From: Lama guanicoe
Lineage: Eukaryota
Direction of reading: 5' to 3'
Length of the DNA: 64,000 bases
Assembly (NCBI GenBank): GCA_013239625.1
Contig: MU053802.1
Coordinates: forward strand, 200,905 to 264,904
In this document: one piece after another, positions 3,508 to 63,629 of the stretch
How positions within the stretch are numbered: position 1 is the first letter of the stretch
How the letters are laid out: each line of letters begins with the position of its first letter
Program-made: the position numbers and the translations under genes
The notes under the pieces: model-generated
The model's database searches: none
The model's input: the letters and a program-made list of their open reading frames with translations, nothing else
What the model was told of the DNA's origin: nothing

Positions 3508-6073
3508 ACCTCTCTGGCACTGTGGTTTATGGAGTATCAGTTGTCTATTTTGGATCTTAAGATTTTTATCTATCTAATGCCTATTTACGAATAGAACTTA
3601 GGGAAAAAAAGAAAAAATAGAGAGAGAGAAAGAATTTTAAAACAAGGGAGAAAGCGGGTTTGAAAACAGTATATAATGAATAATGGAAGAGCTAGTTGAA
3701 GCAGAGTATTAATCGGGTTGAGACGTCCTTTAAAACCTTAAAAAAAAAGTGGGGGGGAGATGAATAGATGTATTTGAAGCCTGTGTCCAATCAATAACAG
3801 GACATCAAAACCCAAGAGAAATAGAAATGGATTAAGAAGTAAAAATTAAGAGAGTAATAGAAAATAGAACAGGTAAAAACAGGTTTAAAAAAAAAGGGGG
3901 GGTTGTCGGTGTTCTCCTGGAGTCTGTGTGCTTTTAATGTGAAGTCTTTCTGTCTTCGTCCTGTTTTGGAAGCTCAGCTTTTTGTTTTCCGAGGCCGTCC
4001 ATTGGCGCCCTGTTCTGTGCTGCTCCCAGCACCTGTAGGGAAGCAGATTGCGCCTCCTCCTAACACGGGGTCAGGTGCAGCTCTCCTGTGCTGCTGGTGG
4101 GAGGGTCACTGCCCCTCCGGATGCCGCAGTCAGATGTTGCAGACTGGCCAGGCAGGAGGGCGGGTCGTGCCCCCTCCCAGCACCTCGGTCAGGGGCTGTG
4201 TTCCTGCCTGAATGGCGGGGGGCCACTCTCCCTCTGCCTGCGCTGCCGGTAGCTCCGCTGCTTTGTGCGGCTGCGCGCTCTGCCAGCGCGCCGCCCTGGT
4301 TGGCGCGCCACCCTGTTTGGCACTCCGCCTTGGTCGCGCTCCGCGGGTGGGCTCAGGGAAGATGGAGGGACAGCCTTGTCCCTGCTCGGAGCCAAAACCC
4401 AGTTCCTCGTTTTTCTTTGTGGAGCAAGTTCTCTGAGGGACCAGGATGGAAGGATCCTATCTGCCTCTGGCTGTAGGCCCGTCTCAGTCTGGTCTTTGAG
4501 GCTGCTAAGCCCTTCGGTGTGGACGCAGGTTTCACCCCCGCCCCCGCCTGGGTGCTCAGCACCAGACAATATGGCGACTGTGACTTGGCCCGCCTCTCTT
4601 CCCCGAAAAGTTTCCGCGGGTTTTCAGAGATGGGGGTAAGCACCCTTCCCCCAAGAGCACATCAACCTTGCTGTTTTATGGAGGGCCCAGGTTGTTCTGC
4701 CCTGTGCACCCACAGCCACAGCGCCCAGCCCCTTGCAGTCCCACAGGGCTGCTTCCGTGCAGCCTCCCTTGTCCTCTGCCCGGCTTGTGCAGCCTGGCCC
4801 TGCCCGCCGCTGCTGGCCCGCGTCTCAGGCTGGGTGTCGGGGGGATGCTCTGTGCCCGTTTAACTTAGTTCTGTCAGACAAGGCTGCTCTGCACAGATCC
4901 GAGCCTCGGAGGCTCCCCCTCCATCCCGCTGGTCTCTCAGTTGGAAAAAGGAGACCCAGCAAGCGAGCACCAGTCCTCCTTTGCTGCTCCCTCCCCGCGT
5001 GACCCGTCCCGCGCTGCTTTGCCTTTTGTTCATTGTTTTTTCCTTTTCTCCACCAGATTTTTGGCATTTTAATCTTTTGAAGAGGGTGATGTTCTGTCGG
5101 AGTTCCGCAGGTGCTCTGGTTGGCTGAGTGGGTCTGTAGATGTATGTGGGTCTTGGTGTATTTGTGGGAGAGGGTGACTTACGAGCGTCCTTCTACTCTG
5201 CCATCTTCTCCGTCTCCCGGGTTACAAGTTCTTTATCACCTACAAAATCCCACAAAGATAGTAGTTTATATTGTTTTAAGGGAATTGAAAATATACACAT
5301 TTTTATTGTTGTTCATCTTCCAGTTGATAAGCACACATTTCCTGTATCATCAAAAGAGAAGTGACAGTATTTACAGTCTGCCTCCTATTTGTTACCTGCC
5401 TTTCAGAAACTTGCCCTTTGGGACTCAGGGTCCTACTTGACAAGCCACAACCTTGTATACTTTAGTGTGAACCCATTCAGTACTCCTTTCAAGATTAAGT
5501 TCTAAGGAATAGCTTTGTAAAGGACAGGTTAGATCTTAATAGAGCTTCAAGTATAAATCAATAAGGAGAAAAATATTGGAGTAAAAAGTAACCAGGCACT
5601 TCTGACTGGTTGTGTTCTCCAGCAATTTCTAACAAAAGAAAAAAGCCAGACTCCAAAGGGATATTCAGTAGTACAACCCTCTCCTCTCTGTATTAAAGCT
5701 GAGATACACCAGACCTTATTTTGTAAACTCTTTCTCTCTTTCTAGGTAATCCGTCAATAACTGGACCAAAGGTTGATGAATCAGATGTCATCACCCATAA
5801 TGAACTGTCAACTTCCTAGTTATTTTCTGAGTTTATTCAACCAACTCACTTTTTTTCTGCTTGCAATTGAGTGTTAATTTGCTCAACTAAAGTGTTTTAT
5901 ACTATATGTCAATGAGCAAATATTACATTTTTGTTAATCAATTAGCTAGCCCTCTCCTGTACCCTACAAAGAAAGTTTCCTCAACTGATACCAATAATCC
6001 CAGTAAACTTAATATAACTACCAATAATTAAATGTATGGAAATAAATTTTAAACATTAGAATCTATGTAAAAC

Positions 6074-6317
6074 GGTGGCAGAACATAGCTCTAGTGGTAA
6101 AGCACATGCCCAGCATGCATGAGGTCCTGGGTTCAATCCCAGTCCCTCCTCCAAATGTAAATAAATAAACCTAATTACTTCCCTCTTATAAAACAAACAA
6201 ACAAAAAAAAAAGATGAACACTTGCAACCCCTGACGAGTTAATGGATATGAACAATGATTATCCATGACTGCTAACATTAAAAAGAAAAGTAAAAGTGAA
6301 AAAAAGACATAAAATAA
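6074..6317 (+). mobile_element. tRNA-derived SINE (camelid vic-1-like) with extended 3' tail
   Basis: A-box-like TAGCTCTAGTGG and B-box GGTTCAATCC, followed by AATAAATAAACCTAATTAC and an A-rich tail. TSD CTATGTAAAAC at 6063-6073 and 6318-6328. Confidence 0.9.
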
Positions 6318-7218
6318 CTATGTAAAACTTCAGTGATTAATATACCCATCATATCTCTGAATTAGAATAGCAGACAATTAAAATTTTATAGTTATTTTAC
6401 CACTTGTGATCTTAGTACCTGGAACAACATTTCCAAAAGTGAATTCTACACGTTAAGTATCAGGAAAAAGAGGACTCCATCAACAAAAGAAAATGGAGGA
6501 AAAGCTGTGTTAAGCAAAGTTAAGCATGTATCTTTGATACAAGCTATTTCAAAGCATTTTGAGTACACAGGAGTTGTACAGAGTATGCAGGATTTCCAAT
6601 TTGGAAGCAGATGCTTTTCTTTCTTGGACCAGTACAGCATTAGTGTTCCCCAGAACATTGTTATTAAGACCTCCCTTTAATCTTTGTTCACTACTTTATC
6701 TGGTAGCAAACATACAGTAAATAGTTCACTAGCACTGTGGTTAGAACTAATTTTTTTGCAACAAAGTTATAAATTCCACCTAATAAAGTTTAAATTTATA
6801 TACTATTAATGACAGTACTTGCAAGGAAAAATCTTTCAGGGCTCAATTCTGAAGTTGAAATAAGGAATATTTTTTCTACGTTGGCAAGGAAACACAATTA
6901 GACTATGAAGTCATGCAACTATTTAATAACAAGTATAAAATGACCATGCTTTCTGCTCTTTTACTCATTAAAGCAAAAAAATAAATAAAGCTTACTATCC
7001 TTGTACTTGAAATATGATTTCTAGCAATTTATTTTCAATTATCCCTATAAGTGTTCCAGAGTTCTCTCAATTTCATTTTATGATTAGTTACTTTGAACTG
7101 AATATATCAGTCCCTTACCAGCATGGAGGCAAGTAGACAGCTGAGTAAACTGGGGCTCATTTGTCTGGAAGAGCACAGTCAGGCACAGCTCTGTTTCTGA
7201 GTTTGGATGGTGAAATAC

Positions 7219-7342
7219 CTGGACATCTGCACAGCTTCCTTGCCTGTGCAGTATCTCCTTTGCTTAATCACATTTGCTGACCAATTGCTGGATGTATGCC
7301 ATTATCATCATGAGAGTGGAGAATAGAGTCCAGAAACATCCC
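7219..7342 (-). pseudogene. TLL1: TLL1 exon 8 equivalent (end of astacin domain), in-frame stop
   Basis: Reads [40 protein letters not shown], versus human [41 protein letters not shown]. It is one G short at the acceptor end. Confidence 0.95.
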
Positions 7343-9860
7343 CTGGAAAAAATCAGAAGCAAGCTACATATAAGCCACTACATTGACACATATATTCCTT
7401 ACAAATAGGTTTTTTCCCCAAACTCAAGTCAACCAAAGGAGAAATATATCAGAGTTGAGATTTAAACAGTGTGCCAGACTTTCAAAACACTTTCATCAAA
7501 GTAGAAACATATTGCATGTTAAATGTGTATGCCTAGCATAAAGTCAGTGACAGCATTCACTTCTTTCTTAGAAATGTATATTATATGTACAAAATCTAAA
7601 ATTCTATATAGCCCCCTATTAAGTTTTTTTGGTCTCTCAAGATCTAAAAAGAGTTACCTTCCTAATTTGTGAAACAATTCTTCCTCATTGAGTGCTATTT
7701 TCTTAAGAACAGCTTATAATAAATATTTTCAAATTACTAAAATTGTTAAAGTGAAACAAAATATGTATATTGATTTTTTAAATTAAACTGTTAATTTAAC
7801 CTAAGTATTTTGAGAAGTTCACGTATTATAGTATTTGTTAAAAGAACAGGGAAAAACAAAGTGTCAAACTTTAGAATAGTTTAAAGCAAAATAATTTTGT
7901 GATACATATACACACTCAAACACACACATAGACTTACAACGTAAAAACTTCATGGTAAAATTGATAAGCCAAAAAAAAAAAAAAAAACCAAAAAAAAGCA
8001 AGGCCCTGACAGTGCTAAGCTACAGATACTGAATTGTTTTGCACCCAAGGTTGTGATAGAAACTTGCTAATTTTCTTAATATGCATGACTAAACATTCTG
8101 AACCTAGTGCACTAAAGATACAGCCTAATTTTGCAATAAATATCTACATTTACAACTCTAAAGAAAGTACTGAGCTTAAAGTTAAATGGACTGGGACATT
8201 ATTCCAACTGGTGAGGATGGAGCGTGTATATCAGAATTTTCCAAAAAAGAAATACTTTTTATAAAAATGTTTTAAATTAAGAGATTCAATTATTTAAAAA
8301 TCTTTTAAATTGAAACGAATGACATGACAGGTTTTTCCCAAAATTTATAGTGGAATAAATTGTACTTAAAATGCAGATTAAAAGAACAACACTTTAGTTC
8401 TACTTACTTCTTCTCTTAAGAAGTATTTACTGAGCATTGTTATAGGCCTGGATTTATAACAATAAATAAAAGAAACAAAAATTACCCCCCTTCTGGTTTT
8501 CACATTCTAATAGAAGGAGAAAGTCCTGAGACAAGACTGATAACTGAGAGAGTGACAGGTACTATCACAAGAAAGAGAAGATGGATATTGGTTATCCACT
8601 GATGGGACAGCCTGTAAATACAGTGATGAAAGAAAAACTCACTTGGAAACTGATATTTTAGCCAAACACGAAGGAAGTGAAGGTGAGGGAAACGTGGGTA
8701 ACTGGGAGCAGAGAGTCACAGAGAGAAAGGACTTTAACAAATACAACAGCCTGAGATGGGAGGACCTGTAAAGGGCTTGAGTGCCAGACAGAAAGTTTAA
8801 CTTTCCCAAGGAAAACTCTTAATATGTGGAGGATGGTAAACAGAGATGTGACATGATCTATGAGTGATTTATAACTAACCACCCTAGCTTCTAGGTGAGG
8901 ATAGTGATCTTTATACAAAACCCAATTACTCAAATACAGAATGAAACTCTTTAAAACCAAATGTAAGTCTCTACACAACTCCATATGTATACTATCTGTG
9001 ATGAAGGGAGGGATGGGGAACTAATGATTCATGGGAATTGACCATCAAACATGAGAGCTGTCACACACTTAGTAAGATGCCACTCCTGTCAGGCCAATGC
9101 AACTGAAGGGGAAGGTGAGCTACAGGGGAGCATTGGGAAAAGTCATTCTTCACCTCTGCTGCACAAATCAACAGGTACATTAAGTAGGGAAGTTCACATT
9201 AATGGAGTGTTACAACTTCTGCAGTACTTCAATACTAACAAAGTGTTCACCATTTTCTATTTCTATTTCTAAAAAAAATTGTAATCTTTGAAAAGTTTTG
9301 GGTTTTTTTCCAGTTTTCAAAAAAGAGTCCATTTAAAAGGATCAAGGACATCTTGGAGTAGATATATTCAAACTCAGACAATAGAATGATGAATTTTGGT
9401 TCATTCAGTCTACTGAGATAAACTGCCTTCCATTTGTATGGGGTCAATCACCCAATCTTTTGATCTTTCTTTACGGTCAAAAAGTTAAGAAGTCTCTCCC
9501 TCAACATCCAGGCCATTAAGGAATGTAGGCTCTTCTGAACATTCTCTCAGAAAGACCATAGATGGGGTCACTTAATAACTTTCATTTGTTTTCCCTACAG
9601 TAGAAGAGTGAATTAACTATGCTTTTTATGAAATTTCATAAAATGTTAGTACTCTTTTATTAATTAAAAATGGGCAGTGCCAGTTTGCAAGCATCTACAT
9701 TACAAATTACCTACACATACAAAATGTCCCTTGTATCCTGTCCTGTTCTTCTCACAGTAAGTACCTAAATCTGCTCATGGTCAACACTGATGAAAACAAC
9801 TAAAACTTTTATATACTATTTTGGTTCAGAATAGAAGAAACTATAAAACTTCAAATACTT

Positions 9861-12103
9861 ACAATAACAGAATGAAGGACAAAAGCCATGTGTTCATCTA
9901 ATTGATACAGAAAAAGCATTTGACAAAATTCAACATCCTTTCATGATAAAAGCACTCAATGAACTGGTAATAGAAGGAAAGTACCTCATCATAAAAGGTA
10001 ATGCATGAAAAGCCTACAGCTAACATCATAGTCAATGGTGAAAAAGTGAAAGCTTTTCATCTAAGTTAGGATAATTGCTGTCACTGTTTCTATTCAGTAT
10101 AGTATTGAAAATCCTAGTCAGCAAATTAGGCAAGAAAAGAATCAAAAGGCATCAAATTGAAAGGAAAGGAAAATCATTTCTGTAGATGACATGATCTTAT
10201 ACGTAGAAAATCCTAGAGAGTCCACTAAAAACCTGTCAGAACTAATAAAGGAATTCAGCAAAACTTCAGGATACAAAATCAGCACCCAAAAACCTGTCAC
10301 ATTTCTATACAGCAACAGTGAACCATCTGAAAAGGAAAGTAAGACAACAATTCCATTTAAAATACAATCAAAAAGAATAAAATACTTGGGAATAAACTTA
10401 ACCAAGGAGGCCAAAGACTTATACACTGAAAAGTACAAAGAATCACTGAAAGAAATTTAAAAAGACACAAATGAATGGAAAAACAATCTATATTTATGGA
10501 CTGATTGACTTAATTTGCTAAGATATCCACACAAAATGATCAACACAATCCCTACCAAAACCCCAACATCATCTACTGTGAAAATAGGAAAAAAAAAAAG
10601 GTTCTAAAATTCATATGTAATCTTATAGGACCTTGAATAGCCAAAAGTTTTTTTTTAAAAAAAAAAAAAACCAAAAACCAAAGTTGGAGGACTTACACTT
10701 CCTGATTTCAAAATATATTACAAAACTGAAGTTACTAATACAGTGTGGTATTGGCAAAAAGACAGACCTACAGACCAATGGACTAGAATAGGAATCCCAG
10801 AAATAAATCCTAGTGTATATTCTGAGAGACCTTTAACAAAAGGGTCAAGACTATTCAATGGGGAAAAGACAATCTTTCCAACAAATGATGTTGGGAAAAC
10901 TGGCTATCCATGTACAAAAAAACAAAGGCCTTTATCAAGGCCGTTCACAAAAAATAATTCAAAATAGATTAAAGATCTAAATATAAAATTCCCAAATCAT
11001 AAAACTCTTAGAAGAAAACAAAGGGAAAACTTGGTGACATTGACTATGGCAATGATTTCTTGGTTATGACACCAAAAGCAGAGATGACAAAAGCAAAAAT
11101 GGGTAAGGGGGACCACATCAAACTAAAAATCTTGTGCTGAGCAAAGGAAATATTCAACAGAGTGAAAAGGAGGGAGAATATTTGCAAAATATATATCTGA
11201 TGAAAGGCCAGAATATATAAAGAAATCTTACAACCCAACAGCAGAAAAATGCAATAATCTGATTTTTAAACTGGGCAGAAGATTTGAATAGGGATTTCTT
11301 TAAAGATGATATACAAATGGCTAGGCATATAAAAAGATCACTAATCATCAGAGAAATGCAAGTCAAAACCAAAACGAGACAACATGTCACACACATTAGA
11401 GAGGCTACTATCAAAAAAATTTAAAAAATAACCAGAAAATAAGTCATGTTGGTGAAATATGGAGAAACTGAAACCCTTTGGTACTGTTGACCGGACTGTA
11501 AAATAGTGCAGCTCCTGAGAAAACATTATGGAGCCTCTTCAAAAAATTAAAACTAGAACTACCACCTAATCCAGCAATCCCGCTGCTGTGTATATATTAA
11601 AAAGAAAGGAAAACAGGGTCTGGAAGAGACATTTGCAGACACATGTTCATGACACCACTGTTCACAGTAGCCAAGAGGTGCAAGTGACTCAAATGTCTAT
11701 CAATAAATGAATGAACAAACAAAATACGGTATACATATCCAATGGAATGTTATTCCACCTTAGAAATTAAGGAAATTCTGTTACTTGCTGTGACATAGAA
11801 GACCCTTAAGGACATTATGCTAGATGAAATAAGCCAGCCACAAAAAGATAAATACTGTCTCCAAAGTAGCCAAATTCATACAAACAGAAAGTGGAATGTG
11901 GTTACCAGAGGCTGGGGGAGGGGAAAGTGGAGCGTTGCCATGTAATGGGGGTAGAGTTTCAGTTTTGCAAGATGAAAACCTTCTGGGGACCTGTTTCACA
12001 ACAACGCAAATGTACTTAATACTACTAAATTGTACTCTTAAAAATAGTTACTATGGTAAATGTGACACTGAGGTTTCTTAACCACAGTAAAAAAAAAAAA
12101 AAA
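9861..12103 (+). mobile_element. Older 5'-truncated L1 (L1M-type; ORF2 RT/C-terminal remnant, 3'UTR and polyA)
   Basis: Remnants include [42 protein letters not shown] and WYWQKDRPTDQW. PolyA at ~12089-12103. TSD TCAAATACTT at 9851-9860 and 12104-12113. Confidence 0.92.
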
Positions 12104-13194
12104 TCAAATACTTTGGAGGTGGTGGCTGAGAACTGTACCAAATATTTCCTATCCTAAAATTCATTTATTTAAACATATGAATGAATCAGTAAACATTTTC
12201 TTTAAAAAGCAGAACAAAAAATAATGTGAATTGCATCAATGCTTTTAACAGATAGATATAATTACTTTCACTCTAGGAATATAAGTTTATTTGGAAAAAG
12301 TGAATAGGAACATTTTGAAACAATAAGAAAAAAAGGCACTAGCAATACCCAAGTAGGTATAGGGGGCAATAAACTGCAAGATCCCCATGGTTTATAGAAA
12401 AGAAACAATTTAAACATATAAAAGGAGTACAGAATAAGGGAAAATATGTATTTCAAGCTTTCTTATAGGTTCACTGTCTATCAGGGAAAGAACACATTAC
12501 TTCTTCCACTCTGCAGCACCTCCTCTGTTCCAAAAAATCAAAACTCATTTTATTTCTAATTAATATAATTCAACAGTATTTTTTAAAAAGCACTTTGGTT
12601 AAACTGGGACCAAATCCCCATTTTTCACGTTTCTAAGGAAAACTCGATTCCAAACACTGACCTAAAAACAAAGCTTTGCAACTCTTTAAGTTTAATTTCA
12701 GGCCAAATTTATGGGTATATTTTTACTAAAGCTTAAATTCAATTCCAGAGATAGTAAATATTTGGATAGTTATTATATTTGAACAAATATATATTGTACA
12801 TTTCAGAAGAAAATGATTTTTAAAATACAGTTACCACTCAATTATTTTAATAATGAAGTTTGGCCTTTAAAAAAAGCATAATTTTAAAATGTATTCAAGT
12901 ATTAAGAGTTTGTTTATATCCTTCTCTAGTTTTTACCAATAGTTAAAAAAAAAAAAGACAGGGGAATTAATTTGATTTTTTCAGTCTTCTTTCTAATCCT
13001 GCCTTTAGAAGCACATTAATGAGTTGTGAAATGGACACAGTGATCAAAAAGAGTGAGTGGAATAGACATACAAGTATAAAATGGGCATAGAATGGGAACA
13101 AGAGATGACTTCAATGGTTTTAACAGCTCCAAATTACTTACCATGAACTACTTCCTGATAACCTCTTCTTTAGAACCCAAATTTATCAGACTCT

Positions 13195-13450
13195 TTTATT
13201 TTATTTTATTGAGTTATAGTCATTTACAATGTTGTGTCAATTTCCAGTGTAGAGCACAATTTTTCAGTTATACACAAACATACCTATATTCATTGTCACA
13301 TTCTTTTTCACTGTGAGCTACCATGATGAAAGATCTTAGATATATTTCCCTGTGCTATACAGTATAAACTTGTTCATCTATTCTACATATGCCTGTCAGT
13401 ATCTACAAATTTTGAACTCCCAGTCTGTCCCTTCCCACCCCTTCCCCCCT
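13195..13450 (-). mobile_element. Short L1 3'-end fragment
   Basis: Starts T-rich, then TTGAGTTATAGTCATTTACAATGTTGTGTCAATTTCCAGTGTA...CCCTTCCCACCCC, the same 3' end as other copies in the window. Flanked by near-direct repeats CAGACTCTT and CAGACCCTT. Confidence 0.8.
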
Positions 13451-14027
13451 GCAGACCCTTAAAAATAAACATCAGTTACTAATGAAATAAGTTGAAGGTT
13501 AACAAATGGCAAAATTCTAAATTCTATGAAGTAAAATAGCTTCCTAAAACACTCTCTGAGAATTATTCTACTATAGCAATTTTTGAGTATAATTAGTACT
13601 TGAGCAACAGAAAATACATAGTAGAGAACATAAGTCACATAGACAGCATAACACTCCAACTCAGCAACTGAGCTCTCTGTTTGATTTGAAAGGCCTAAAT
13701 TTCATTAAAAGTGCTTTGTCAGTTTAACATTCTGATTGCTTTGGTAATCATTTTCATTGAATTTTTTTATGATTTAGGAATATTAAATTTTAAATAATTC
13801 ATATCATTTTAACTTTTACTTTGAATCTATTAATTTGATAGGAAATGTGAAAATGTGTTTTTTACATCTCAAAAGCCCGGTGTCAGTTATAAATGTCAAT
13901 TAGTATTTTTTGTACCTTGTGGCAGCAATATTTGAAAGTGGTTCTAGTTGTAAAGTTAAATCTAGTTTTATGAGGGGCCACACAGAGGATAGGAATTAAA
14001 AGTCAAAAGGTATAAGCTGAGAATTCA

Positions 14028-14128
<101 letters not shown>

Positions 14129-19949: not shown

Positions 19950-19984
19950 AAGTCAAGTATCTGCAACTTTAAACACTAATAAAC

Positions 19985-24265: not shown

Positions 24266-24400
<135 letters not shown>

Positions 24401-35210: not shown

Positions 35211-35249
35211 TAATATTATTCTCTGAGACTTGACAAAGATTATCAAGGG

Positions 35250-51345: not shown

Positions 51346-51556
51346 GTGTTTGTGACGTGAGTTGCGTGCGCGCTCGCGTGCACCTCGGCAAGTGTGTGGC
51401 ACGTGACAGTGACTTTGCGTGTGTGTGCGCGCCTGAGGACGTGTGTGGTTGTGTGTATGTTATGGGTGTGTGTGTGGCACATGACTCCGTGTGTGTGCGT
51501 GGGGATGTATGTGGAGCAGAGGCAGTGTGTCTGCACGTGTGTTTGTGTGTTTGTGC
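51346..51556 (+). repeat. Degenerate (TG/CG)n low-complexity tract
   Basis: Alternating purine-pyrimidine runs (GTGTGTGCGCGC...). Confidence 0.8.
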
Positions 51557-52156: not shown

Positions 52157-52175
52157 TGTCGCCACCTGGTGGACA
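52157..52175 (-). promoter_or_regulatory. Candidate CTCF site
   Basis: The minus strand TGTCCACCAGGTGGCGACA matches the CCASYAGRKGGCR core. Motif match only. Confidence 0.5.
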
Positions 52176-53555
52176 TCCTGGGTAGTGGCAGTGGGAGGCC
52201 TAGCACCCCTGGTATGGAGGTGGCAGGACGAGGTCCTAGGGGATGATCGTTTTCACATGTCTTAAAAATCATTGCTTGATATACTTTATCCATCTTGGGG
52301 TTTATTCTAGGATGTTAAATATGGTCTGTATTACTCCTTCTTAGCTGGATTTATGAATTTTTTTTGAGGTTTCTTCTCAATGATTTGGAAGCTATATTGC
52401 CTTTTAATGAAAATTCTCTCTAAATTTTTATAAATCATCTCTAAGTTCATAACTCTATATGTAATTGGACCAGTATTGCTATAAGAGTCTCAAAAGTGAA
52501 ATCATCTATTAGATCTTGATTCTCAATCATGATACATTTAGCATATTTTACCTCTCTGCTCTTCCCAATTGTGTGTGTGTGTGCACGTGCACTACACTTA
52601 CTGCTTTTTAGACAGTTGCTTTAAGTTTGTTACATTCACAATGAAACTACAGGTATAAACATCTTGGATTTCATTGCTCGCTACCACTACTTAATCCCAT
52701 GTGTTTCCCACTTTTGAGTTATTTACTTCTTTCCCAATCAAATGGAGACATGATTGGCTAATTTTTTTCGAGTGGTGGACTAGGAAGCCTTCCCTGACTA
52801 TACACAGCTTTATGTGCTTGCCATATCTCGGCTTCATTGAGAAGCATGTTTTTACTGTTTCTCGGACGGGCTTCCACTTTGAACCACTAAACCATCACCG
52901 CACTCTTTCGGTCCATGCTTATTCCTGAACAAGTGAGCTCTCTACTGGAGTAAAGATGCTTCCCGTCAGAGATGTGTGGCTTCCTGTCCCGAGGTCCAAA
53001 AGAAGAGAAAAGGAAAGATTCCTGGTTCCGATGGTTCCATTTTGTCAGCTGAGAGATCTAGTTATCCGTGTGGCTGCGGTGGAATCTGCAATATCTTGCC
53101 TCAGAGTTCCCTTTTTCTGGCTCACTAGGGGAGCCGCATTAGCTGGGGTCAGGGCGCTCTGGCCCTTGTCAGGGTCCCAGTGCTGAGGCAGCCCCTCCCC
53201 CCACCCCCACTCCTTGTTGTTTTGATCGTGCAAACTGGGTGCCAGCCCTGCGAACCCGGCACCTGGCAGCCAATATTGCCCCCCCACCGTGCAACGTGTC
53301 CCCAGTTCCTCGGCGTCCCTCACTGCTACCAGCTAGCTCCAGGAAGGGTGCGAGCTGGCTTCCACTGCCGTCCTTCCTCCTTCCTGTCCAGGCGGGCCCT
53401 CCTTTTGTGCTTGTTGGCCAGAAACCTCGTCTCCTGCACTGCATACGCTGAAGAAATTCCTCAGCGTTTCCAGACGCTAGAGGGCTCTCTTCTCCTCTCT
53501 TTGGTCCCCTTCAGCGCTTACAGTGGAAACTTAGGCGGTGGGAAGTGCTTGGGGG

Positions 53556-54935
53556 TTCTCCGTATCTAGCGGCTCCCTATCCAACAGATTCATCTAAGTG
53601 TGAATTTAAAATATTCGGGAAAAAACAGAAAGTTTTAAAAAGCAACCCTTGAATTTACCATACCCTGGCAACTACTTTCATAGCATTGATGTTGTATTGG
53701 ATACCGTGAGTAATCTAGATATGATTTGAAGTACACAGGAGGTCACAGCGAAAGAGAATATGACAACGAATGTATGTGTATGTTCGTGTATAACTGAAAA
53801 ATTGTGCTGTACACTGGAATTTAATGCAACATTGTAAAATGTCTATAACTCGATAAAAAAATTTTGTATATATATATATGTATATATATATATAAAACTA
53901 CATGGGATTGTGCATATGAGTTCCATGCAAGTCCTATGACATTTTGCACAAAAGGCGTCAGGATCCATGGATGTTGACGTCTGGGGGAATTCCTGGAACC
54001 AGTGTCCCGTGGTTACAAATGGATGCCTGGAAGTCCAGGCTCCTTATCCCAGTCTGTCATTTACCCATGTGGTCTGAATCCTGCCTCTACCTCAGTCTCC
54101 CTGTCACTCTCCTCCAGCCCTGCCAGACTGCCCTCTGATTCTTGAACAGGCCTCACTCACTGAGCTTCATGTCTGGCCCCTAGAAATACCCGTTACTTTC
54201 TGAGCATGGCTCTGCTTTAATAAAGCGGGCTGCACTGTGACTTGAGAACACAGTGTAGTGATTCCTTTAAAACTGAAAATGGACATAACTCATGATCCAG
54301 CCTTCCCACTCCCAGGCATATGTCAGGAGAAAACTCTAATTCAAAAAGTCACATGCACCTCAATGTTCACAGCAGCACTATTTATAAAAGCCAGGACATG
54401 GCAGCAACTGAAATGTCCATCGACAAGTGACTGGATAAAGAAGTAGTAGTATATTTAGACAAAGGAATCCTACTCAGCCATTAAAAAGAACAAAATAATG
54501 CCATTTGCAGCAACATGGATGGACATAGAGATAGTCATTCTAAGTGAAGAAAGCCAGAAAAAGAGAAAAATGTCATATGATATCACTTATATGTGAAATC
54601 TAAAATAAGACACAAATGAACTTAACTACGAAAGAGAAACAGACCCATAGACATAGAGAAACAAATTTTCGGTTACCAGGGAGAGAAGGGGATGAGAAGG
54701 GATAAAGATGGGAATTCGAAAAGTGCCCCTCTTGGGGAGTGATGGAAATGTTAGCTATCTTGATGGTGGTGATGATTTTCTGGATGTAGACATCAATCAA
54801 ATTCATCAAATAGTAAATGTGAAATATGTGTAATTTACTGTACAGGAATCATACCACAATAAAGGTGCCTGTAAAAAAAAAAAAGAAAAGATTGGCGACA
54901 TTGTGTCCTACGTTTTTATGTGTCTTCAGTGAGTG
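53556..54935 (+). repeat. Second copy of the Tigger-MITE + unique spacer + L1 3' module, paralogous to 48680-49885
   Basis: Same order and shared non-repeat spacers (CTCTCCTCCAGCCCTGCCAGA, CTTCATGTCTG..CTAGAAATACC, CTGAGCATGGCTCT, CATTGTGTCCTA.GTTT.TATGTGTCTTCAG). An extra L1 3' end with (TA)n is inserted at ~53742-53895. Confidence 0.9.
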
Positions 54936-56999
54936 GGTCTTCAAGTTTCCGGTCTACCATATTTTCTGAACCACAAGTGCCCTACATCCCTTTTCTTTGA
55001 TAAACTGTCAGTGGGTGGCATTTATTCCCGTGGCTTCAACTTCTCTCTGTCCACTGATTAACTGTCAAATCTTTTCCAGCATGGACATCTCAGTTCAGCC
55101 CCACAAATATACTTGTAATTGACAAATAGACATTCCCACTTGATTAACCCATAAAAATCTCAAGCTCTGTATGTTTGGATTTACACTCGCTCAGAACTAG
55201 GTTTACTTCTTCAAACAATGGTATCACAATCCCATCTGTTTTTCGAGCCATACATCTGGGAGTTTTCCTTTACTTTTCCACTCCCTCACCCCCGTCAGTA
55301 CTACAATTCTCTTCCTTAATATCCCCCAACTAAGTCCCTGCCCCTCGCTCCCCACTGCATTAATTCACACCCCTTGCTAGTCTCCCCAGTGCTGTTCTTT
55401 AGAGTGAACAATCCACTTTGCTCACTTTTAATGACTAATCTGTGTCACTCTCCTCCTTAAAACCCCAAAGAATTCCCCGCGGCGTATGTGAGGAAGTCCA
55501 CGCTCCCTGATTTAACGTTACACCTTCTCATCACCTACTTGCTGCTTTTTTTCAGCCTCAGCTTCTGTTAGTTCCTCACAGCCTCTAGCCTCACTGACCT
55601 TCCTTCCCTAAGTGCAAAGTGCTCTTAGACACGACCAGGCGTCTGCACAAGACACGCAAGATGCTGAGAATCCTGTCCCCAACATGCACTCTCCTGGTCT
55701 ACAGATTTGCTGGAATCCTTCAGATGTCAGTGAAGAAAACATTTGCTGTCTTACACCTTCCCTACCTTCTAGAACCCTGCCCCAGGCAGTGCAAGAGCCC
55801 CTCTGAACATACAGTATACATGATGCCAAGTGACTCTTGCCAAATTGTTTTGAAAACCTATTTAAATTTGTCTCTTCCACGACACACTGTGATCTCCTTG
55901 AGGGATGGGGGGCTGTGTGGTATTTGTGTAGACAGCTAATGTCTGGCACAGACCCCGGGCCATTGGAAACCGTCTGCTTACTCATCAATAATTGTCGTCT
56001 TTGCGATGAAAGAAAGACTACATGATCTCTGATCTTACACCATCCGGCAAGGGTCAAAATAATTTCACATAGAACTACACAGGCAAAATATGTGTATTCT
56101 TTTCCTCTTTGTGAGCCCGAAATCATAGGCATTCTGGAACGTAGGTGCCACTCTTAGCTGTCTGTCCCGTAGGCTGTCACGTCCAGCTTCAACATATTTT
56201 TTAGAGGTTGTAGGGATACGTGTACATCACCCCATCTTACAGCAAACGGTGCTTCAGCCTGACCAAGTTTAATGTCCATATAAAAATCAGAAATCTTCGA
56301 AACTGAAGCCTGAAGAAACATTTCCCTTCTCTCCTTCCAGTCTGTCTGCCATCTTCATCCCACATTCCCACTGCTCTTCTGCGTCAGGCCACCTTCTATT
56401 TAGAAACATTTTCGGTGGGACACTTGGATGAGAACTAATTACAGCAGTCATGAAAATGGTCCCATGAACATAGGCTCTGCACAACAAGGATGTTTGACGG
56501 GAGGCCTCAGCCGCGGCCTGCAGGGTCTGTTCACGTTTTCTGCCTGGCTTCCCTGCAGACGTTCGGCAGAAAATCAAGCCTGCAGTTAAAGTCATAGAAG
56601 GCCCAAGAAATCCAGAAAAACAGAGTGAGAGTCATCTCATTGGGAATATTTTTGAAAACCATCCACTAATAGGAAGAAGAGATTTAAGAGGTTCGTTTCA
56701 GAGCAGATGATGTCCAACTGCAGGTGGGTCAGTTTTCTCATTGTTGCTTGCTAGTTGGCTTTCTGCTGCTTCTAACACACCACTGTTTAGAGAAGTGGCC
56801 TGAGTCGGCCCTCAGAGCAGAAAGGTGAGCTGGGCCTGGAGACAGCCAAGCTCCTCTGCTGTGTAGTGACCCGCTGAGAAGGAAGGGATGGCCCAGGGCT
56901 TCCTCTGACTCTCTCCCTCAGTTATAAACTCTATGAAGGGAAAATGGAACAAAAAATCTTAATTCAATATGGAATTGTCAAAGTATAAAAATAATTGTC

Positions 57000-57165
57000 T
57001 TTGGAGGGGATGGAATAGTTCAAGGGGTTGAGTACGTGCTGGGTTCAATTCGCAGTACCTCAATGTAAAAAATAATAAGAAAAGGTCTTTAAAATAAAAG
57101 AAAAATAACAAAGAAGAAAAGAGATCTCAAACAACCCCAGTTTAAAAAGAAAAAAAAAGTCTTTT
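57000..57165 (+). mobile_element. Degenerate tRNA-derived SINE
   Basis: GGAGGGGATGGAATAGTTCAAGGGGTTGAGTACGTGCTGGGTTCAATTCGCAGTACCTC with an A tail. Near-TSD AAAAATAATTGTC / AAAAATAGTAGTC. Confidence 0.7.
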
Positions 57166-60100
57166 AAAAATAGTAGTCAGCTCAGTCTTTTGCTAGATTA
57201 GGAGTTTGGGATTAAGAGATACACACTACTATGAATAAAATGAATAACCAACTCCCAGGTCCTTAATAACTTATTTCAACCTGAATCCTTTCTCTTTTTT
57301 CCCCTAAGCAACCCGTGGAAGCATCTGAAATTCTCATCTTATAAAAGAATTCATTTAAAGGCGGTTTGAAAGTTACTGGTTAAAACAGTTATTTATGGTT
57401 CCATGAATATAAGTCTAGTAAGAAGTACAGACAATAAACTAGTAAGCAAATAAATATATGATGTACTGCCAGGTACTAACAATTGCCACAAAGAAACATA
57501 AAGTATATTAGGAGAGAAAATGATTGAATAGGAAATATGTGTGTGCTAGTTTAAATAATGTGATCCGATAAGTCCTCTCTGAGGGTAAAATGATTTGAAC
57601 AAAGTCCTGAATGAAGCAAAAGAATAAGCCACGTAGGTAACAGACAAGAAAACCTCCCAGGCCGGGAGAAGTGTAAGTACGAGACTTGGAGTTACAAACA
57701 CTGCCGTCCTGATGTGGACCATCTGGGCGGTGAAGATGGGCTGGAGAAGAACGGTGAGACCTGAGGCTGCAGAGACGGGTGAGGGACCGGACCACACAGG
57801 GCCTTGTTAGGGATTCCGGATATCCTTCTGAATACAATGGAAAATCACGAGAGTATTTCACAAAGCGGAACATCTTGATCCGATTCATAATTTAATAAGA
57901 GGGTTGTGGGTAACATATGGGGAATAAGCAATGGAAGCAGGGCAAGGTAAGCTGATGGGAAGCCAGTGGGAAGAATGCTGCTGCCCTGGAGACAGACACC
58001 GAGGTTGGGCAGGGATGATGGCGGGAGACAGGCTGGAAAGGGGACACGATTTGACAGTAATGATCACAGGCCTTAGTGCTCGAGTTGGATAGAGACACAG
58101 AGTGGTTCATGGTGATGGGTATGTGATATTTGGGACTGAGCCACAGTTTTTGTGCAGAGACCTGACAGGAGAATAAAGTGGGGACGTTGACGTTGGGAAG
58201 AAGGGTTGGTGGGTGTTGAATTCCCCCTACAGCTGCATCTCTGTTTCTCTGTAGATGAAGTCAGCAGAGCAGGGATGGGTGTTCCTGCGTCTGCAAAGAA
58301 TTGCGTGTCGTCCTCATCGACAAATTCGAGAGGCCGACCTGCCCATCCAATTGCAACATCTTGAATCTGCTTCTTTCTATCCAGGAGGAGATTTCCAACT
58401 AAGATGCCAATCAAAAATTCCCGTGTCCAGAGTTAGAGCTGTGTGCCTTTGGGTTGATCTCAGAGATGCCTCCAAAGAGGCTTGGTGTGCTCTCTCTCCC
58501 TCTGAGCACACAGTTCCCTTCAGTCTGGTGGGTCTCAGCAGAGAAGATTTCAGAAATAGCCCCTCTCAGGCCCTGGGGACGAACCTCCTGCTTGGCCGAG
58601 CTCTGAAAATGAGCACGAGTTCCAGGCAAAGGGCGTTCTCCAGGCCGCCATCTGGCAGATTACATGGGGACAGTGTACAAAAGAGTGTGAGGGTTGATGG
58701 TATAAATGGATTTTAATTTTTGCTCTGTGTCTGATTCTGTCCTTCCATTTTGTTAAGGAAGTGTTGTTAGGCCAGACATGATTCTCCTTTTTTCTTTCTA
58801 TTTGATCATCCAAGAGGTTTAGATAGGGTATTTGTTTTAGGGTAAGAATCTTAAAAAAAAAAAAACCTTGCATATTGGTCTTGTTAGGTATTTGGGCAAG
58901 TAAATTCTCCCAGCAATATTGAAACCACTTGTTCCTCCAGGGGGTCTCCAAAGGTATACATTTTCCAAATCTGACCCAAGACCAATGAGCCTTTTCTTTT
59001 TTTTAAGCACTTCACCATGGACAATAGATGTCACTAAAGAAGGTGAGAAAAGAGCAGGTCCGAATCATCCAGTGTCCCTCCCAAAAAGCCCAGAGAAGTA
59101 AAGAGGAGATGAACGAGAGAAATGGTTTATTTATACACACGCAGGAGCCAACCAGAAAGGTAACTACCATGTCAAATGGTGAAAGTTAAAGGCTTTGTTA
59201 TCAACCTAACTTAATAGGGCAAAATGAAAGGAGAGAACTGGCTTCCATGACAGATTTTCTTCTGCATCTATTGAATCTCAGGTATCTTCAGCTTAAAGTG
59301 CTATTGTATTAACCGTGGGTTCCATCTGACTTTCCATTCCTCGAACTTTGTTCTTCTTTTTCAAGATTCACTCATGTATTCTGACCCCCTGGATTTTCCA
59401 CGTGAATTTTCAATTGATTGTCAATTCCTGCAAAACACCACCTGGGATTTGGGTAGGCATTCTTTGAATCCTTAGATCTATTCGTGGACTGTTGTCATCT
59501 TAGTAGAATGAAGCCTCCTGCTCCATGAATATGGGATTATTCTCTGTGAATGTAGGTCTTAATTTCTCTCAACAGAATCTCTCCTTTATTGTAGTCTTCA
59601 GTGTCCAAGTCTGGTACTTCTTCCACACTTGTATTGGATGCTGATTCAGAAGAGACACGACCTCCTGGAGAACCTCTGCTACCAAGGAGCAGACATGGAA
59701 CTGAGTCCTGAGAAGGCTTTAAATTCTTTTAAAAATAAGATTAATGTACTTAAATTATTCCATAGATGAGTAATGAATAGGTCACAATAACATAGGATTT
59801 TAATCCTTTTAGAATTAGTAGAGTAATACAGACACATTACAAAAAATTGAAATATTGCCTAAAAGTGAAGAGATTTGTAATTCCCACCCACAGAGGTGAC
59901 TGTCATGAATGATTTGGTGTTTATGTCTCAGTCTGTGTGTCTCTCAGTATGTCTCTCTCCATCTCTGTCTCTCACACACTCACAATCAGATCAATTTCCA
60001 TCTATGCTGATTTCACACATATGTGGTCATGCAGATGGGACCCTGGGTGCAGACTGTGGGTCTGCATACTTCCACCCTGAGGCCTCCCTTGACGTTGGGT

Positions 60101-61233
60101 TGAGACCAGGCACCCACTTTTCCAACTGTACAGCGTCCATTCATCCACATGAACCAGAACGAATGGACCCCCTCCCCTCTCCATCAATATTAGTGTTGCT
60201 TTAATTCCGACTGTTTCAACCAGTGCTGTGATGATCACCCTTGAAAAGGCATCTTTGAATAGGTGTGTAAGGATTTTAGTGGGATGAACTGTAAGGATCA
60301 GAACTTCTGGGGAAGAGATGCATCTGTGGCCCTTTGATGCGTCCTGCACCCTGTTCTCCTGAAGAGGAGCGTCCCTTCACTCTTCCCTCCAGGGGATCTG
60401 CTGGAGCCTCTGTCTGCTTACATTGTCACCAGGGCTGGTTGTCACCTGACTGAAGACCCGCTAGTGTGATGGTGACCGGTGCTGTCTCTGCAGTGTTTCC
60501 TTCTGCCTGTGTTCTCACCTGAGAGGTCAAGCATCTCCAACACACACTGGCCACCTGCATTGCCTCTCATTGGAACTGCCCATGCCTGTTGTGTTTCTGT
60601 TTAGAACACTGGGTTTTGAAAGGATTTTGGACTACAGGGATGGGAAATCTTTCTCCAACCTCGGGTTATGAGGAATGCATTTTCCAGGTTGTGGTTTGAT
60701 TTTCAAGCAGTTTTTCTGGGCTTTTGTTAATTTTTTTGAATTGTTTTGTTTTGTTTTTGCCACAGGAAGGGCGAAACATCTCCCTTGTGTCTTCTGGCTG
60801 TGGTGTCACGGGGGGAACAGCAGTGTCTACCCTGAGATTATGCACAGAGTTACTAAAAGGGCTTCATTTTGTGCATCACATCTTTAATCCTCCTGGATAT
60901 CCCCTTAAAAAAATAATAAATTGCTGTTTCAAGTGAAAACAAAAAAAAATCATCAGCTCCAGCTTAAAACATGTGGGCAGGGACAAAAAAAAAAAGCTTT
61001 TTTAAAGTTTCATTGAAAGGGAACAGCCAGGAGAGGTAAAGACACACAGAGAGAAAGAGGACTTTGGGTTGTCAGGGGCTGGGTGAGGAGGGAGGGGAGT
61101 GCGGTCTTTGGATCCAAGGTTTCACTTTGAAGAAAGAAATAGTGTGAAACTAGATGGTAGTGATGGTCGCACAACATTGTGAATGGCCCTAATGCTCCTG
61201 AATTGCACAATTTAAAAGGGGAAAAGCCTATAT

Positions 61234-62848
61234 TTTATTAATGAAACTCTAAAAAGAAAAATAAAGGATACCATAAATGATGTGAAACAAACAAAGGAAA
61301 CTAAAGAAAACCAAACAAAAACATCTCCAGCGGAAGGGACATCACGTTTGGGAGGGAGAGGGGGAGGACTGATGGTGGGATTTTGAACATTTTGCAGAAG
61401 AAGGTGTGGGTGGGCGCAGAGGGGGCTCTGCCCCAGGTGGTGGTGATGCCTGAACTGGTTCTCCGTTGCCCAGCAGTCCAGCTGCAGATACAGGTTCAGG
61501 AGGAGCTGCAGGAGCGGCAGGAGGGAGCTCGGGGTCTCCTGCTGGATCAAGATCGTCCTTTTTTTGGTCTCTGACATCTTCCCCTGCCCCTGCCTCCTCT
61601 GTAACTATTGGATGTGGAGAGAGTTTTAAGTCTTGTGGAAGAGCTCATGCTGTGAGAGAGGAAAAATTTACCCACCTGCCTCCCTTTCCATGTGCCTCTT
61701 CAAGCACAGAAACCTTCCCAGAGCTTTCCAGACAGCTCCCACCCAGAAAGTGCCCACAGGATGTGTTCTGTGACTGAATTTTTCCAGACAGGTGGTCTGA
61801 GGCCATTCTTTGCTCTCGTTCCAACATTAGCCTCTGGGGACACTTCCCTGTGTGACCCAGCCCTCACCCCTCCCTCACCTGCACACATGCACCAGCCCTG
61901 CCTTTCTGACCTTCGGGCTCTGCTTCAGGGGCTCCTGGTCCTCCACCTGACTTGCAGCGAGGTGGGCACAGTGCTGCAGGTCAGAGCCGAGTGTGCTGAG
62001 CTACCCGTCAGCCCCAGGCAGGTCCCTGGGAAAGCCCTGGGTGAGGTCTGGGTCGGAGACCTACCCCACTGATTTCTGGGCCATGGTGGTGGGGACCCCT
62101 CCATATCCAGACCCACCTGGAGCCTGCGCTGGACTTAAGAGTGGCACACCAGCCCTTCACTTGGGGAGGGGGCGTTGGTGTTCTTATTCATCAGCTTCTG
62201 TTCAATATGTGGTATCTGGCTCTGCAATGACAGTGACCAGCAGCTGACCCGGCCTGGAAGTCTCAGAGCCCTGCCTGGCCAGGAACACTCCTGATTCTGT
62301 CCAATCGACCCTCTGCTGCCAGATCAGACCGGTACCTTGTTCAGCTCAGACACCCGAGAGGGAAAAGACATACCCAGAGTGCATGGGCTCCACCTCGGGC
62401 AGCAGGACCCTTCCCTGGCTCTCCACATCCCAGCCAGCCAGCTTTGACCTGGGCTGTGGATGTGACCGGCCCCCCAGGCCTCTGACATGCACTTGCTTGA
62501 GGCAGAAATCCATCCCCAACATGACTTCCCCACCTCCACCAGCCAGGAAGGGGCCGTGGGGCTACCTGGGTGGGATATGAGTGGTGGCCCGGCCTGAGCG
62601 GGCCTGCCCTGGGCCTCCCTGTGTTACCTTTGGGTCTCTCTGGCCAAAAGGCCAGAGGCGCCTTGGGTGAGACCTGACCCAGTGCCAGCAGCGTTGGTAC
62701 AGCCCCTCGCTGCGGGCTTTCCGGGGACTTCAGCCTCGGGATTTTGGGATGCAGCAGAACATGCCTCTGTCTCCAACCAGGTGAGCTGAGTAGGGACTTC
62801 TCTACAGAGCGGGTGCTTGGTGACTTCGGTTCCAAGTTCTGTTGGGCT
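61234..62848 (-). pseudogene. Truncated RALGDS-derived (RalGDS-like family) multi-exon gene with in-frame stops
   Basis: Exon 62628-62762 reads MFCCIPKSRG*SPRKARSEGLYQRCWHWVRSHPRRLWPFGQRDPK|gtaaca. Exon 62117-62221 reads SQIPHIEQKLMNK...S*VQRRLQ. Segment ~61911-62015 reads GSDLQHCAHLAASQVEDQEP/EAEPE (RalGDS PGSDLERRAHLLLAQLEHSEPIEAEPE). The last exon 61342-61649 is Pro/Ala-rich, and minus-strand AATAAA lies at 61234-61239. Confidence 0.75.
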
Positions 62849-63629
62849 CTGTTGCCAGGGAAGTGAGGTCACTTCCTGGGGTCCACTTATCCAAGCTTCC
62901 TCCTGACACAAAGCTCCCCATGGGCCTTTCTGGGCTGCTGATCTCTCATTTCTCACTCCATGTCATGTCCACACAGAGTGACACAAACTCAGCCCCCCCC
63001 ATAGTCCTTGGGAGGCCTGGATGCAGCCAGCACCACAGCTCTGAAGACACAGCTGTGTTCAGACCTGGCTGCCCTCACTCAGCAGTGCCATCATCATGAA
63101 CAAGCCTCGTGCCTCTCAGGTTCTCCCCAATCCCCAATCGGCACAGTGGGGATCATTCTGGCCCCTGTTTCCTAGAGAAGCCATCCTGTCTCTAGACCTA
63201 GAAACATCTACTGCATCTGTCACCCCCATGGGCTGGCATCACAGGGAGCTCGTGCACAGACTCAGCAAAGGAAGGACCCCACAGAGGGCTGGCCAGGGTC
63301 TGCCATGAGTTCTGAAGAAAGTCACTTTCCTTGCTGCTTGCTTCCCAGCTCCCTGTCCTGAGACTGAAATTAAATACAACTTTGACATCGTCCGCTCTTG
63401 CATACAGCCTCCAAGGTCATTCTGTCATGTTGATGTACAGGCCCAATGTCCCATCTCGGACTCTGTGGTGGGCTGCCCCACAATGTCTTCCTATGCTTTG
63501 CCTTCTGTTCCCATGCCCTTGTGGGATCCCCACATCCTCCCCTGGAGGGTGGATGGACTTTGAGACCAGGTTATGACATGCAGGCTGACTTGTGAAAATG
63601 TGAGTTCCACTCCTTCCCAGCTCCAGTGT

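What the first reader, a model, noticed from the sequence alone, without database searches (positions are those of the whole stretch)
5219..63200. Mosaic duplication hub: intron-containing fragments of TLL1, CEP162 and a RALGDS-like gene within ~60 kb
Seen in sequence: three unrelated, intron-retaining, incomplete and disabled gene pieces in alternating orientation, plus unassigned exon-like segments between them. Established: human TLL1 (4q32), CEP162 (6q14) and RALGDS (9q34) are unlinked. Inference: this is an acceptor region for DNA-level duplicative transposition, like pericentromeric, subtelomeric or Y-linked duplicon mosaics. It may be organised around the lineage-expanded RalGDS-like gene acting as a core duplicon. 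It could be a camelid-specific segmental-duplication system.
Basis: partly seen in the sequence, partly recalled or inferred. Interest (0 to 1): 0.75.

Follow-up and report, generated by a model that had tools for sequence, protein, structure and literature searches.

The report
Camelid duplication mosaic around RALGDS-derived gene
This stretch is a real, old patchwork of broken pieces of unrelated genes, built step by step beside a many-copy gene derived from RALGDS in a llama-type genome; it resembles the duplication hubs known from primates, but this copy is dead and a driving role for the gene is not shown.

Summary
The mosaic is real. The window holds disabled, intron-bearing pieces of TLL1 (5.2-26.7 kb, minus) and CEP162 (27.3-49.1 kb, plus) and a dead three-exon RALGDS-derived gene (61.2-62.8 kb, minus). 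Source loci lie on three other scaffolds. Every junction recurs on other, diverged scaffolds, so misassembly is unlikely.

The CEP162 piece left its source on the camelid stem, roughly 30-40 Myr ago under an assumed clock. Its last scrap sits inside a unit of at least 18.5 kb that is collinear on 9 other scaffolds. The gene family itself hits 84 scaffolds. This scaffold carries three generations of the family (long decayed, intact 303-aa, dead) plus ANO6 and WHAMM/JMY debris.

The family is structurally core-like, but copies of the window's type evolve neutrally; expression and chromosome position are untested. The family's first-exon module is not camelid-specific: bat protein models fuse it to PACS2 and COPS2 pieces.

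This scan noted the gene family in another genome (e1-7855600) and similar mosaics in this one (e1-7858905, e1-7859014). Verdict: new member of a known kind.

The parts
1..5218 (-). LINE-1 insertion that splits the TLL1 fragment; younger than the C1709/C2397 split
   Evidence: L1-type ORFs (label from recall). C2397 runs straight across the site.
5219..26657 (-). TLL1 fragment with introns; it continues left of the window
   Evidence: 83-88% to C8970:3,549,249-3,577,231. Source exons aa 54-729 have no stops.
24271..24381 (-). TLL1 exon for aa 57-94, 2-base deletion
19980..20066 (-). TLL1 exon for aa 94-122, no gap
14029..14129 (-). TLL1 exon for aa 271-306, 7-base deletion
7218..7344 (-). TLL1 exon for aa 307-347, 1-base deletion and a stop
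15700..16190 (-). RPLP1 retrocopy inserted after the TLL1 duplication
   Evidence: PDB E 7e-29. Present in C2397, absent from the source stretch.
26670..27295 (.). Spacer from a fourth source (old LINE-like DNA; label from recall) joining TLL1 to CEP162
   Evidence: Same spacer-to-CEP162 junction in C6062 and C2397; C6062 has about 9 kb more between TLL1 and the spacer.
27296..49124 (+). CEP162 fragment, aa ~370-885 of 1405, with introns, stops and frameshifts
   Evidence: 78-84% to C4240:1,230,818-1,253,943, which holds exons for aa 1-1405.
48680..49880 (+). Module A: CEP162 intron end (MER2/L2-like; labels from recall), break at ~49,124, then an L1 3' end
   Evidence: Alignment to the source and to three other copies.
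49880..53570 (.). Segment Y, source unknown, part of the common amplified unit
   Evidence: 34 scaffolds among 38 candidates scored. The module-to-Y junction is also on C8444.
53570..54933 (+). Module B: second copy of the module, with the same CEP162 break point
   Evidence: 81% to module A. The scrap hits 31 further scaffolds among 40 candidates scored.
54934..60242 (.). Segment X, source unknown, part of the amplified unit
   Evidence: 28 scaffolds among 30 candidates scored, 89-94%. No Pfam, PDB or Atlas assignment.
60243..61276 (.). About 1-kb direct repeat R (3' end of the gene). A second copy lies 4,034 bases to the right, just outside the window, marking a former head-to-tail monomer
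   Evidence: 76% identity
61212..62762 (-). Dead RALGDS-derived three-exon gene (exons 62,628-62,762; 61,911-62,221; 61,212-61,604): MFCC first exon, fused RALGDS exon remnants, Pro/Ala tail; no REM or RasGEF domain

Best explanation
The window is one recombinant edge of an old, stepwise-built family of duplication blocks in a New World camelid, and a RALGDS-derived gene module is the smallest part the blocks share.

(1) Shown: an intron-bearing RALGDS duplicate with an added first exon lost its middle and its GEF exons, giving a 4-kb three-exon monomer.
(2) Shown, date inferred: on the camelid stem a CEP162 segment was copied at DNA level, broken in an intron and joined through an L1 end to segment X and the gene.
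(3) Shown: this composite was recopied to at least five loci, and TLL1 segments came to lie beside four of them.
(4) Inferred: in one lineage segment Y replaced most of CEP162 by exchange within the MER2-like repeat, and that unit of at least 18.5 kb was copied dozens of times.
(5) Inferred from discordant distances: the window arose by unequal exchange at the 1-kb module between a CEP162-long copy and a Y-bearing unit.
(6) Shown: a stretch of at least 76 kb was later copied again (C2397).

The window's pieces are pseudogenes. Their effect is structural: they supply homology for further unequal recombination. Any selected function would lie in the intact copies elsewhere.
For: Source loci lie on three separate scaffolds.

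Every junction recurs on diverged scaffolds: TLL1-spacer-CEP162 on C2397 (96%) and the spacer-CEP162 junction on C6062; CEP162-L1-X on C8494, C5183 and C6062; module-to-Y on C8444.

The duplicates carry 7 of 14, 7 of 14, 6 of 11, 13 of 20 and 13 of 17 camelid-derived CEP162 residues (derived of derived plus ancestral). K2P to source: CEP162 0.132-0.145, TLL1 0.10-0.125; C1709 vs C2397 0.014-0.038.

The window's CEP162 part is closest to C6062 apart from C2397 (0.085, bootstrap 95), but its X part is farthest from C6062 (0.145) and closest to C8494 (0.087).

5 of 5 CEP162 copies have a family member in the same fetched stretch. TLL1 pieces lie beside 4 of those 5. C1709 carries three family members. 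The family hits 84 scaffolds, a lower bound.
Against: Y, X, the gene and the right flank are collinear on 9 other scaffolds, so most window-type copies spread as one large block and not as a core with variable flanks; what lies beyond that block in those copies was not read.

Window-type copies show pN 0.087 vs pS 0.088 (10 copies, 72 codons), and 0 of 12 copies examined have an open three-exon frame under my splice model.

The distal CEP162 block (2,019 columns) gives 0.107-0.113 among all four lineages and does not reproduce the C6062 grouping.

Adjacency is not causation, and the loci were found by searching outward from this window. There is no read-level check, and C2397 ends before the module-A-to-Y junction.
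Confidence: 0.62

Rival explanations
1. No core: the RALGDS-derived gene is one passenger in a large pseudogene-rich block (the ANO6-bearing block) that was amplified in repeat-rich chromosome regions. TLL1 and CEP162 landed there because the region is unstable, not because of the gene.
For: A unit of at least 18.5 kb is collinear on 9 scaffolds. An ANO6 exon lies 17 kb right of the gene. The copies evolve neutrally. Pseudogene-rich blocks with other genes are described for alpaca chromosomes 11, 17 and 36 (PMC13751797, passages).
Against: The family also occurs outside that block: the intact copy L101 has a different 3' flank, and the long copy sits between TLL1 pieces with WHAMM/JMY-like DNA. 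The right flanks of C8494 and C6062 (CEP162-long copies) differ from the window's within about 1 kb of the gene.
Confidence: 0.27
2. Y-linked or other sex-chromosome ampliconic region that captured autosomal pieces.
For: Small, repeat-rich scaffold (289,692 bases) and a many-copy gene. Testis-type ampliconic behaviour is recalled knowledge.
Against: A copy lies at 43.2 Mb on C6476 and another at 7.6 Mb on C2129. Alpaca gene models lie on five sequences of 18-97 Mb. This excludes a Y-only family, not a Y location for C1709.
Confidence: 0.05
3. Misassembly of a short-read scaffold in a repeat-rich region.
For: The assembly has 55,231 contigs. Two identical gene copies on C3763 are each flanked by gaps. 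No second locus shows the exact CEP162-module A-Y path.
Against: No gap between 23.5 and 64 kb. Each junction recurs on scaffolds 4-15% divergent. Modules A and B are only 81% identical, too different to confuse an assembler.
Confidence: 0.04
4. The mosaic encodes a working fusion gene (CEP162 exons spliced to Y or X exons).
For: An AG-flanked, acceptor-like tract follows each module.
Against: All 8 CEP162 exons found have gaps, several have stops, and the RALGDS-like gene is on the other strand and dead.
Confidence: 0.02

Closest known systems
Primate core duplicons, especially LCR16a/NPIP (PMC7419210, abstract and Background read; PMC6920530, passages)
   Same: Mosaic blocks of unrelated, incomplete gene segments around a shared lineage-expanded gene whose exon structure has changed; two structural versions of the gene; dispersed copies.
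   Different: Much older (78-88% identity to source loci). The window's copy and its clade are dead and neutral. Expression and positive selection are not shown. Copies appear to be on several chromosomes.
Pseudogene-rich repetitive blocks of alpaca chromosomes 11, 17 and 36 (PMC13751797, passages; one supplement file searched)
   Same: New World camelid genome; many fragmented, duplicated gene pieces in repeat-rich domains.
   Different: Those blocks hold NEK10, ATF5, FMN2, ACTB, uS3m and ABHD17A pieces and are reported absent from camel assemblies. RALGDS and ANO6 do not occur in its main text; these two, TLL1 and CEP162 do not occur in the supplement file searched. The junctions here date to the stem, so camels should share them.
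RGL4/Rgr and 'RALGDS-like' mammalian paralogs (rabbit P0120, donkey P0122; PMC3141262, passages)
   Same: Same first-exon module and RALGDS-derived exons. RGL4 is noted as one of three Ras-module genes that vary among mammals.
   Different: The camelid short form has no REM or RasGEF domain and ends in a Pro/Ala tract with a hydrophobic tail. Only the decayed long copy keeps DNA similarity across the GEF region.
Human CDRT15/CDRT15L2 (likeness of the N-terminus is recalled, not tested)
   Same: Three exons (PMC10403009, passage), first found in the CMT1A duplication region. Rat Ralgdsl11 and Cdrt15l2 lie about 40 kb apart (PMC13477028, table passage).
   Different: No CDRT15 sequence came up in any call, so homology is only a lead.

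Membership tests
Core duplicon (primate sense) | Element shared by all duplication blocks of the group, with flanks of differing origin | tested here: inconclusive
   5 of 5 CEP162 copies have a family member nearby, and flanks differ among them and at L101. But 9 scaffolds share at least 18.5 kb around the gene, and no genome-wide decomposition was possible.
Core duplicon (primate sense) | Core gene keeps an open reading frame | tested here: inconclusive
   Met by the copy at C1709:26.5-28.1 kb (303 aa, GT-AG) and by alpaca models. Not met by the window copy; 0 of 12 window-type copies are open.
Core duplicon (primate sense) | Transcriptionally active, often testis-derived | not tested
   No read-level result was obtained. 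Alpaca RefSeq models exist but are predictions.
Core duplicon (primate sense) | Positive selection in many members | tested here: inconclusive
   Window-type copies: pN 0.087, pS 0.088. One pair of intact-type copies: pN 0.047, pS 0.121, intron 0.047. Too little data.
Core duplicon (primate sense) | Copies mostly confined to one chromosome (stated for the human families in PMC6920530) | tested here: not met
   Alpaca models lie on five sequences of 18.1, 35.8, 55.6, 86.2 and 96.8 Mb. Interchromosomal cores appear in one title (PMC5088589, search listing only).
Core duplicon (primate sense) | Independent, recurrent expansion in separate lineages with new flanks or fusions | tested here: inconclusive
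   Multi-member clusters in a molossid bat, armadillo and donkey; bat models fused to PACS2 C2 and COPS2 pieces. Protein models only; their DNA was not seen.
Segmental duplication (at least 1 kb and 90% identity; definition recalled) | At least 90% identity to another locus | tested here: met
   Met for C1709/C2397 (95-96% over 76 kb) and for X (89-94%). Not met against the source loci (78-88%), which are ancient duplications.
Duplicated (non-processed) pseudogene | Introns retained, intact source elsewhere, frame broken | tested here: met
RALGDS/RGL Ral-GEF family | RasGEF (CDC25) domain | tested here: not met
   No PF00617 match at any family locus; the one shared scaffold, C4142, has its match 2.8 Mb away. 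None in alpaca models. The long copy keeps only about 60% DNA similarity there.
RALGDS/RGL Ral-GEF family | Descent from RALGDS | tested here: met
   DNA hits to the C1217 locus only, of four loci tested; protein match in the GSDL exon.
Pericentromeric, subtelomeric or Y-linked mosaic | Chromosomal position | not testable with these tools
   Contigs are unplaced. No telomere-repeat doublet in the 189 kb of C1709 scanned.

The most novel reading that the evidence does not exclude
The RALGDS-derived first-exon module is an ancient placental-mammal core duplicon. It would have expanded independently in camelids, bats, equids, xenarthrans and rodents (and possibly persists as human RGL4 or CDRT15 in low-copy repeats), each time gathering or fusing with pieces of unrelated genes: CEP162, TLL1, ANO6 and WHAMM/JMY here, PACS2 and COPS2 in bats. 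Core-driven interspersed duplication would then not be a primate peculiarity, and one module could be followed across the placental tree.
Probability: 0.3. Interest if true: 0.78.

Novelty: new member of a known kind. Interest (0 to 1): 0.46.

Why it matters
Core-centred mosaic duplications are described mainly in apes, and one source states that tandem clusters predominate in most other mammals (PMC7419210, Background). A dated, junction-resolved camelid example shows the same architecture built over tens of millions of years. It offers a direct test of whether cores drive duplication or ride along, because the family has intact, dead and ancestral forms in one genome. In practice, these TLL1, CEP162 and ANO6 copies will confound annotation, read mapping and copy-number calls in camelids.

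Tried and rejected
Naming segments X and Y failed. Pfam gave no relevant family for the stop-free frames scanned (one sub-threshold hit, taken as chance). PDB gave nothing for three frames and a weak E 0.3 hit for a fourth. The Atlas gave no usable hit. Their source loci were not found, because only the best 30-38 candidates are scored.

My first idea that Y is a window-specific insertion was rejected. The idea that the MFCC exon is an alternative first exon of RALGDS itself found no support in the 10.7 kb upstream of exon 2.

The idea that no GEF-region remnant exists on these scaffolds was corrected.

The two identical gene copies on C3763 are gap-flanked and were not counted as a recent tandem duplication.

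The run search listed RNA runs holding only 5-9% of the words. No lay-over result was obtained, so these rows are no evidence of expression.

The first pN/pS figure for window-type copies included an inserted column and was replaced.

TLL1 copy number is a lower bound: 40 of 3,800 candidates were scored and most were a repeat.

Literature searches found no paper on this mosaic or on a camelid RALGDS-like expansion. The original CDRT15 paper was not held. Subscription papers and most supplements were not searchable and may bear on novelty.
Full report
Setting. The window is G000:C1709:200,905-264,904, on a scaffold of 289,692 bases in a 2.05-Gb assembly. The genome's intact CEP162 matches alpaca at 35 of 37 sites where alpaca and dromedary differ, so it is a New World camelid. 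I read 189 kb of C1709 plus 6 kb near its start, all of C2397, and 100-120 kb each of five other scaffolds.

Observation. TLL1 occupies 5,219-26,657 on the minus strand at 83-88% identity to C8970 (21.8 Mb), whose exons for aa 54-729 have no stops; I did not read the rest of that gene. Four of seven source exons tested are present, three of them frameshifted, and three exons are deleted. CEP162 occupies 27,296-49,124 on the plus strand at 78-84% to C4240 (8.36 Mb), which holds exons for aa 1-1405. Eight of eleven exons tested are present, all gapped. The third piece is a three-exon gene at 61,212-62,762 on the minus strand. It matches the genome's RALGDS locus (C1217) at exon 2 and at the exon that closes the REM region, with about 2.6 kb between them deleted. 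The three paralogous loci tested and 20 shuffles gave nothing comparable. It has no RasGEF domain and a stop at codon 11. That the human genes are unlinked is recalled; here the three sources lie on separate scaffolds.

Not a misassembly. C2397 repeats C1709:167-250 kb in the same order at 95-96%, including the TLL1-spacer-CEP162 junction. C6062 shares the spacer-CEP162 junction, and C8494, C5183 and C6062 share the CEP162-L1-X junction base for base. The module-to-Y junction recurs on C8444. The one path with no second witness is CEP162-module A-Y itself, because C2397 ends just before it. I have no read-level check.

The amplified unit. The gene region hits 37 scaffolds, X 28, Y 34 and the right flank 39, each from 30-40 candidates scored (counts for 14, 44 and 53). 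Nine other scaffolds carry all four parts in the window's order and spacing (C2129, C8494, C4371, C2810, C4123, C6062, C1369, C3277, C7464), so the unit is at least 18.5 kb. It contains a 300-base scrap of the last CEP162 intron with the same break point as the long copies. The CEP162 junction therefore predates the main amplification. An ANO6 exon lies 17 kb further right, which suggests the unit belongs to the ANO6-POFUT2 block noted earlier in this genome (e1-7858905); I did not test POFUT2.

The gene family. A protein search with an alpaca model hit 70 scaffolds (127 of 5,648 candidates scored), 84 together. C1709 alone holds three forms. (a) A long decayed copy at 169-177 kb has the first exon, a REM remnant and about 60% DNA similarity across the RALGDS GEF region; it is also on C2397. 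(b) An intact 303-aa copy lies at 26.5-28.1 kb; an alpaca model of this type has a hydrophobic C-terminal tail. (c) The window's dead copy. Among window-type copies, 0 of 12 are open under my splice model and pN equals pS (0.087 vs 0.088). For the intact type I could compare one pair only: pN 0.047, pS 0.121, intron 0.047, which settles nothing.

Order and age. CEP162 copies are 0.132-0.145 (K2P) from the source and 0.085-0.114 from each other, apart from the recent pair. TLL1 copies are 0.10-0.125 from the source. C1709 and C2397 differ by 0.014-0.038 (columns near gaps were dropped, so these are low estimates). The copies share half to three quarters of the amino-acid changes common to alpaca and dromedary. 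The duplication therefore falls on the camelid stem, before the split of camels from South American camelids (11-25 Myr; PMC13751797, passage). With a recalled rate of about 2e-9 per site per year this is roughly 30-40 Myr; the date is an inference. In the main CEP162 alignment the window groups with C6062, but in X it is farthest from C6062 and closest to C8494. I read this as unequal exchange at the 1-kb module. A shorter distal CEP162 block did not resolve the grouping.

Is the gene a core duplicon? In favour: all 5 CEP162 copies have a family member in the same stretch, TLL1 pieces lie beside 4 of the 5 (C1709, C2397, C6062, C5183), flanks differ among these loci, and WHAMM/JMY-like and ANO6 debris lies near further copies. 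Against: most window-type copies spread inside one large block, they are neutral, expression is untested, and the loci were ascertained from this window. By the features given in PMC6920530 (passages) and PMC7419210 (abstract, Background), it works like a core structurally, but membership is not established.

Beyond camelids. A search of cluster representatives returned 33 hits. Of the 20 looked up, 14 carry names, from alpaca, rabbit (with RasGEF), donkey, three bat genera, anteater and armadillo. Two molossid models join the same first-exon module to a PACS2-type C2 domain and to the COPS2 N-terminus. The rat assembly paper lists Ralgdsl11 next to Cdrt15l2 (PMC13477028, table passage). A likeness to human CDRT15 is recalled and untested. 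These are protein models; I saw none of their DNA.

Novelty. Ten literature searches found no description of this mosaic or of a camelid RALGDS-like expansion. The alpaca VicPac3.1 paper has no RALGDS mention in its main text (PMC6598621, passages). Pseudogene-rich blocks in alpaca are in print for other genes (PMC13751797). The class is known from primates. This scan had noted the gene family in another genome and two similar mosaics in this one.

Verdict. A real, old, dead mosaic and a new member of a known kind; interest 0.46. The bolder reading, a placental-wide core duplicon, has a probability of about 0.3 and would deserve about 0.78.

Noticed in passing
L023:8056-10000 and L024:1-6362 (C1709:168,960-177,266, +); also C2397:65,859-73,981: Long decayed RALGDS-like copy with first exon, REM remnant and GEF-region DNA similarity; it looks like the ancestral form of the short gene.
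   Followed up: partly
L101:2495-4128 (C1709:26,495-28,128, -): Intact 303-aa three-exon copy of the family on the same scaffold, about 235 kb from the window copy.
   Followed up: partly
L028:6224-6412 (C1709:281,128-281,316, +): ANO6 exon 17 kb right of the gene; probable link to the ANO6-POFUT2 block.
   Followed up: partly
L022:2089-3036 (-) and L022:7881-8696 (-): Frameshifted WHAMM/JMY N-terminal region (looks like JMY, from recall) and a PFN1-like copy between the two TLL1 pieces.
   Followed up: partly
C1709:119,156-149,922 and 185,251-227,561 (L018-L026 and window): TLL1 is present as two pieces that overlap by 8 kb and differ by K2P 0.11, so it was copied twice or duplicated early.
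   Followed up: partly
window 22,045-22,650; C6062:463,746-464,370; C8494:151,868-152,486; C5183:3,412,608-3,417,541: The same 600-base LTR-like family sits at different sites in the paralogs; the TLL1 source lacks it at the window's site. In C5183 the insert and a CEP162 exon are triplicated in tandem.
   Followed up: partly
window 15,700-16,190: RPLP1 retrocopy at the edge of a 6.5-kb deletion of TLL1, shared with C2397.
   Followed up: partly
window 49,880-49,958 and 51,160-51,330 (+); 56,340-56,720; 58,255-58,430: Exon-like, splice-flanked stretches in Y and X that no library named.
   Followed up: partly
P0121, P0124, P0112, P0118: Molossid bat models fuse the first-exon module to PACS2 and COPS2 pieces, or repeat it in tandem 5 to 13 times.
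   Followed up: partly
CEP162 tree: The C1709/C2397 lineage has a shorter branch (about 0.035) than its sister C6062 (0.055); cause unknown.
   Followed up: no
L072-L073 and L081-L082 (C8494:116-132 kb; C5183:3,373-3,390 kb): About 16 kb of shared, unidentified DNA left of the longer CEP162 pieces; a further donor locus is likely.
   Followed up: no
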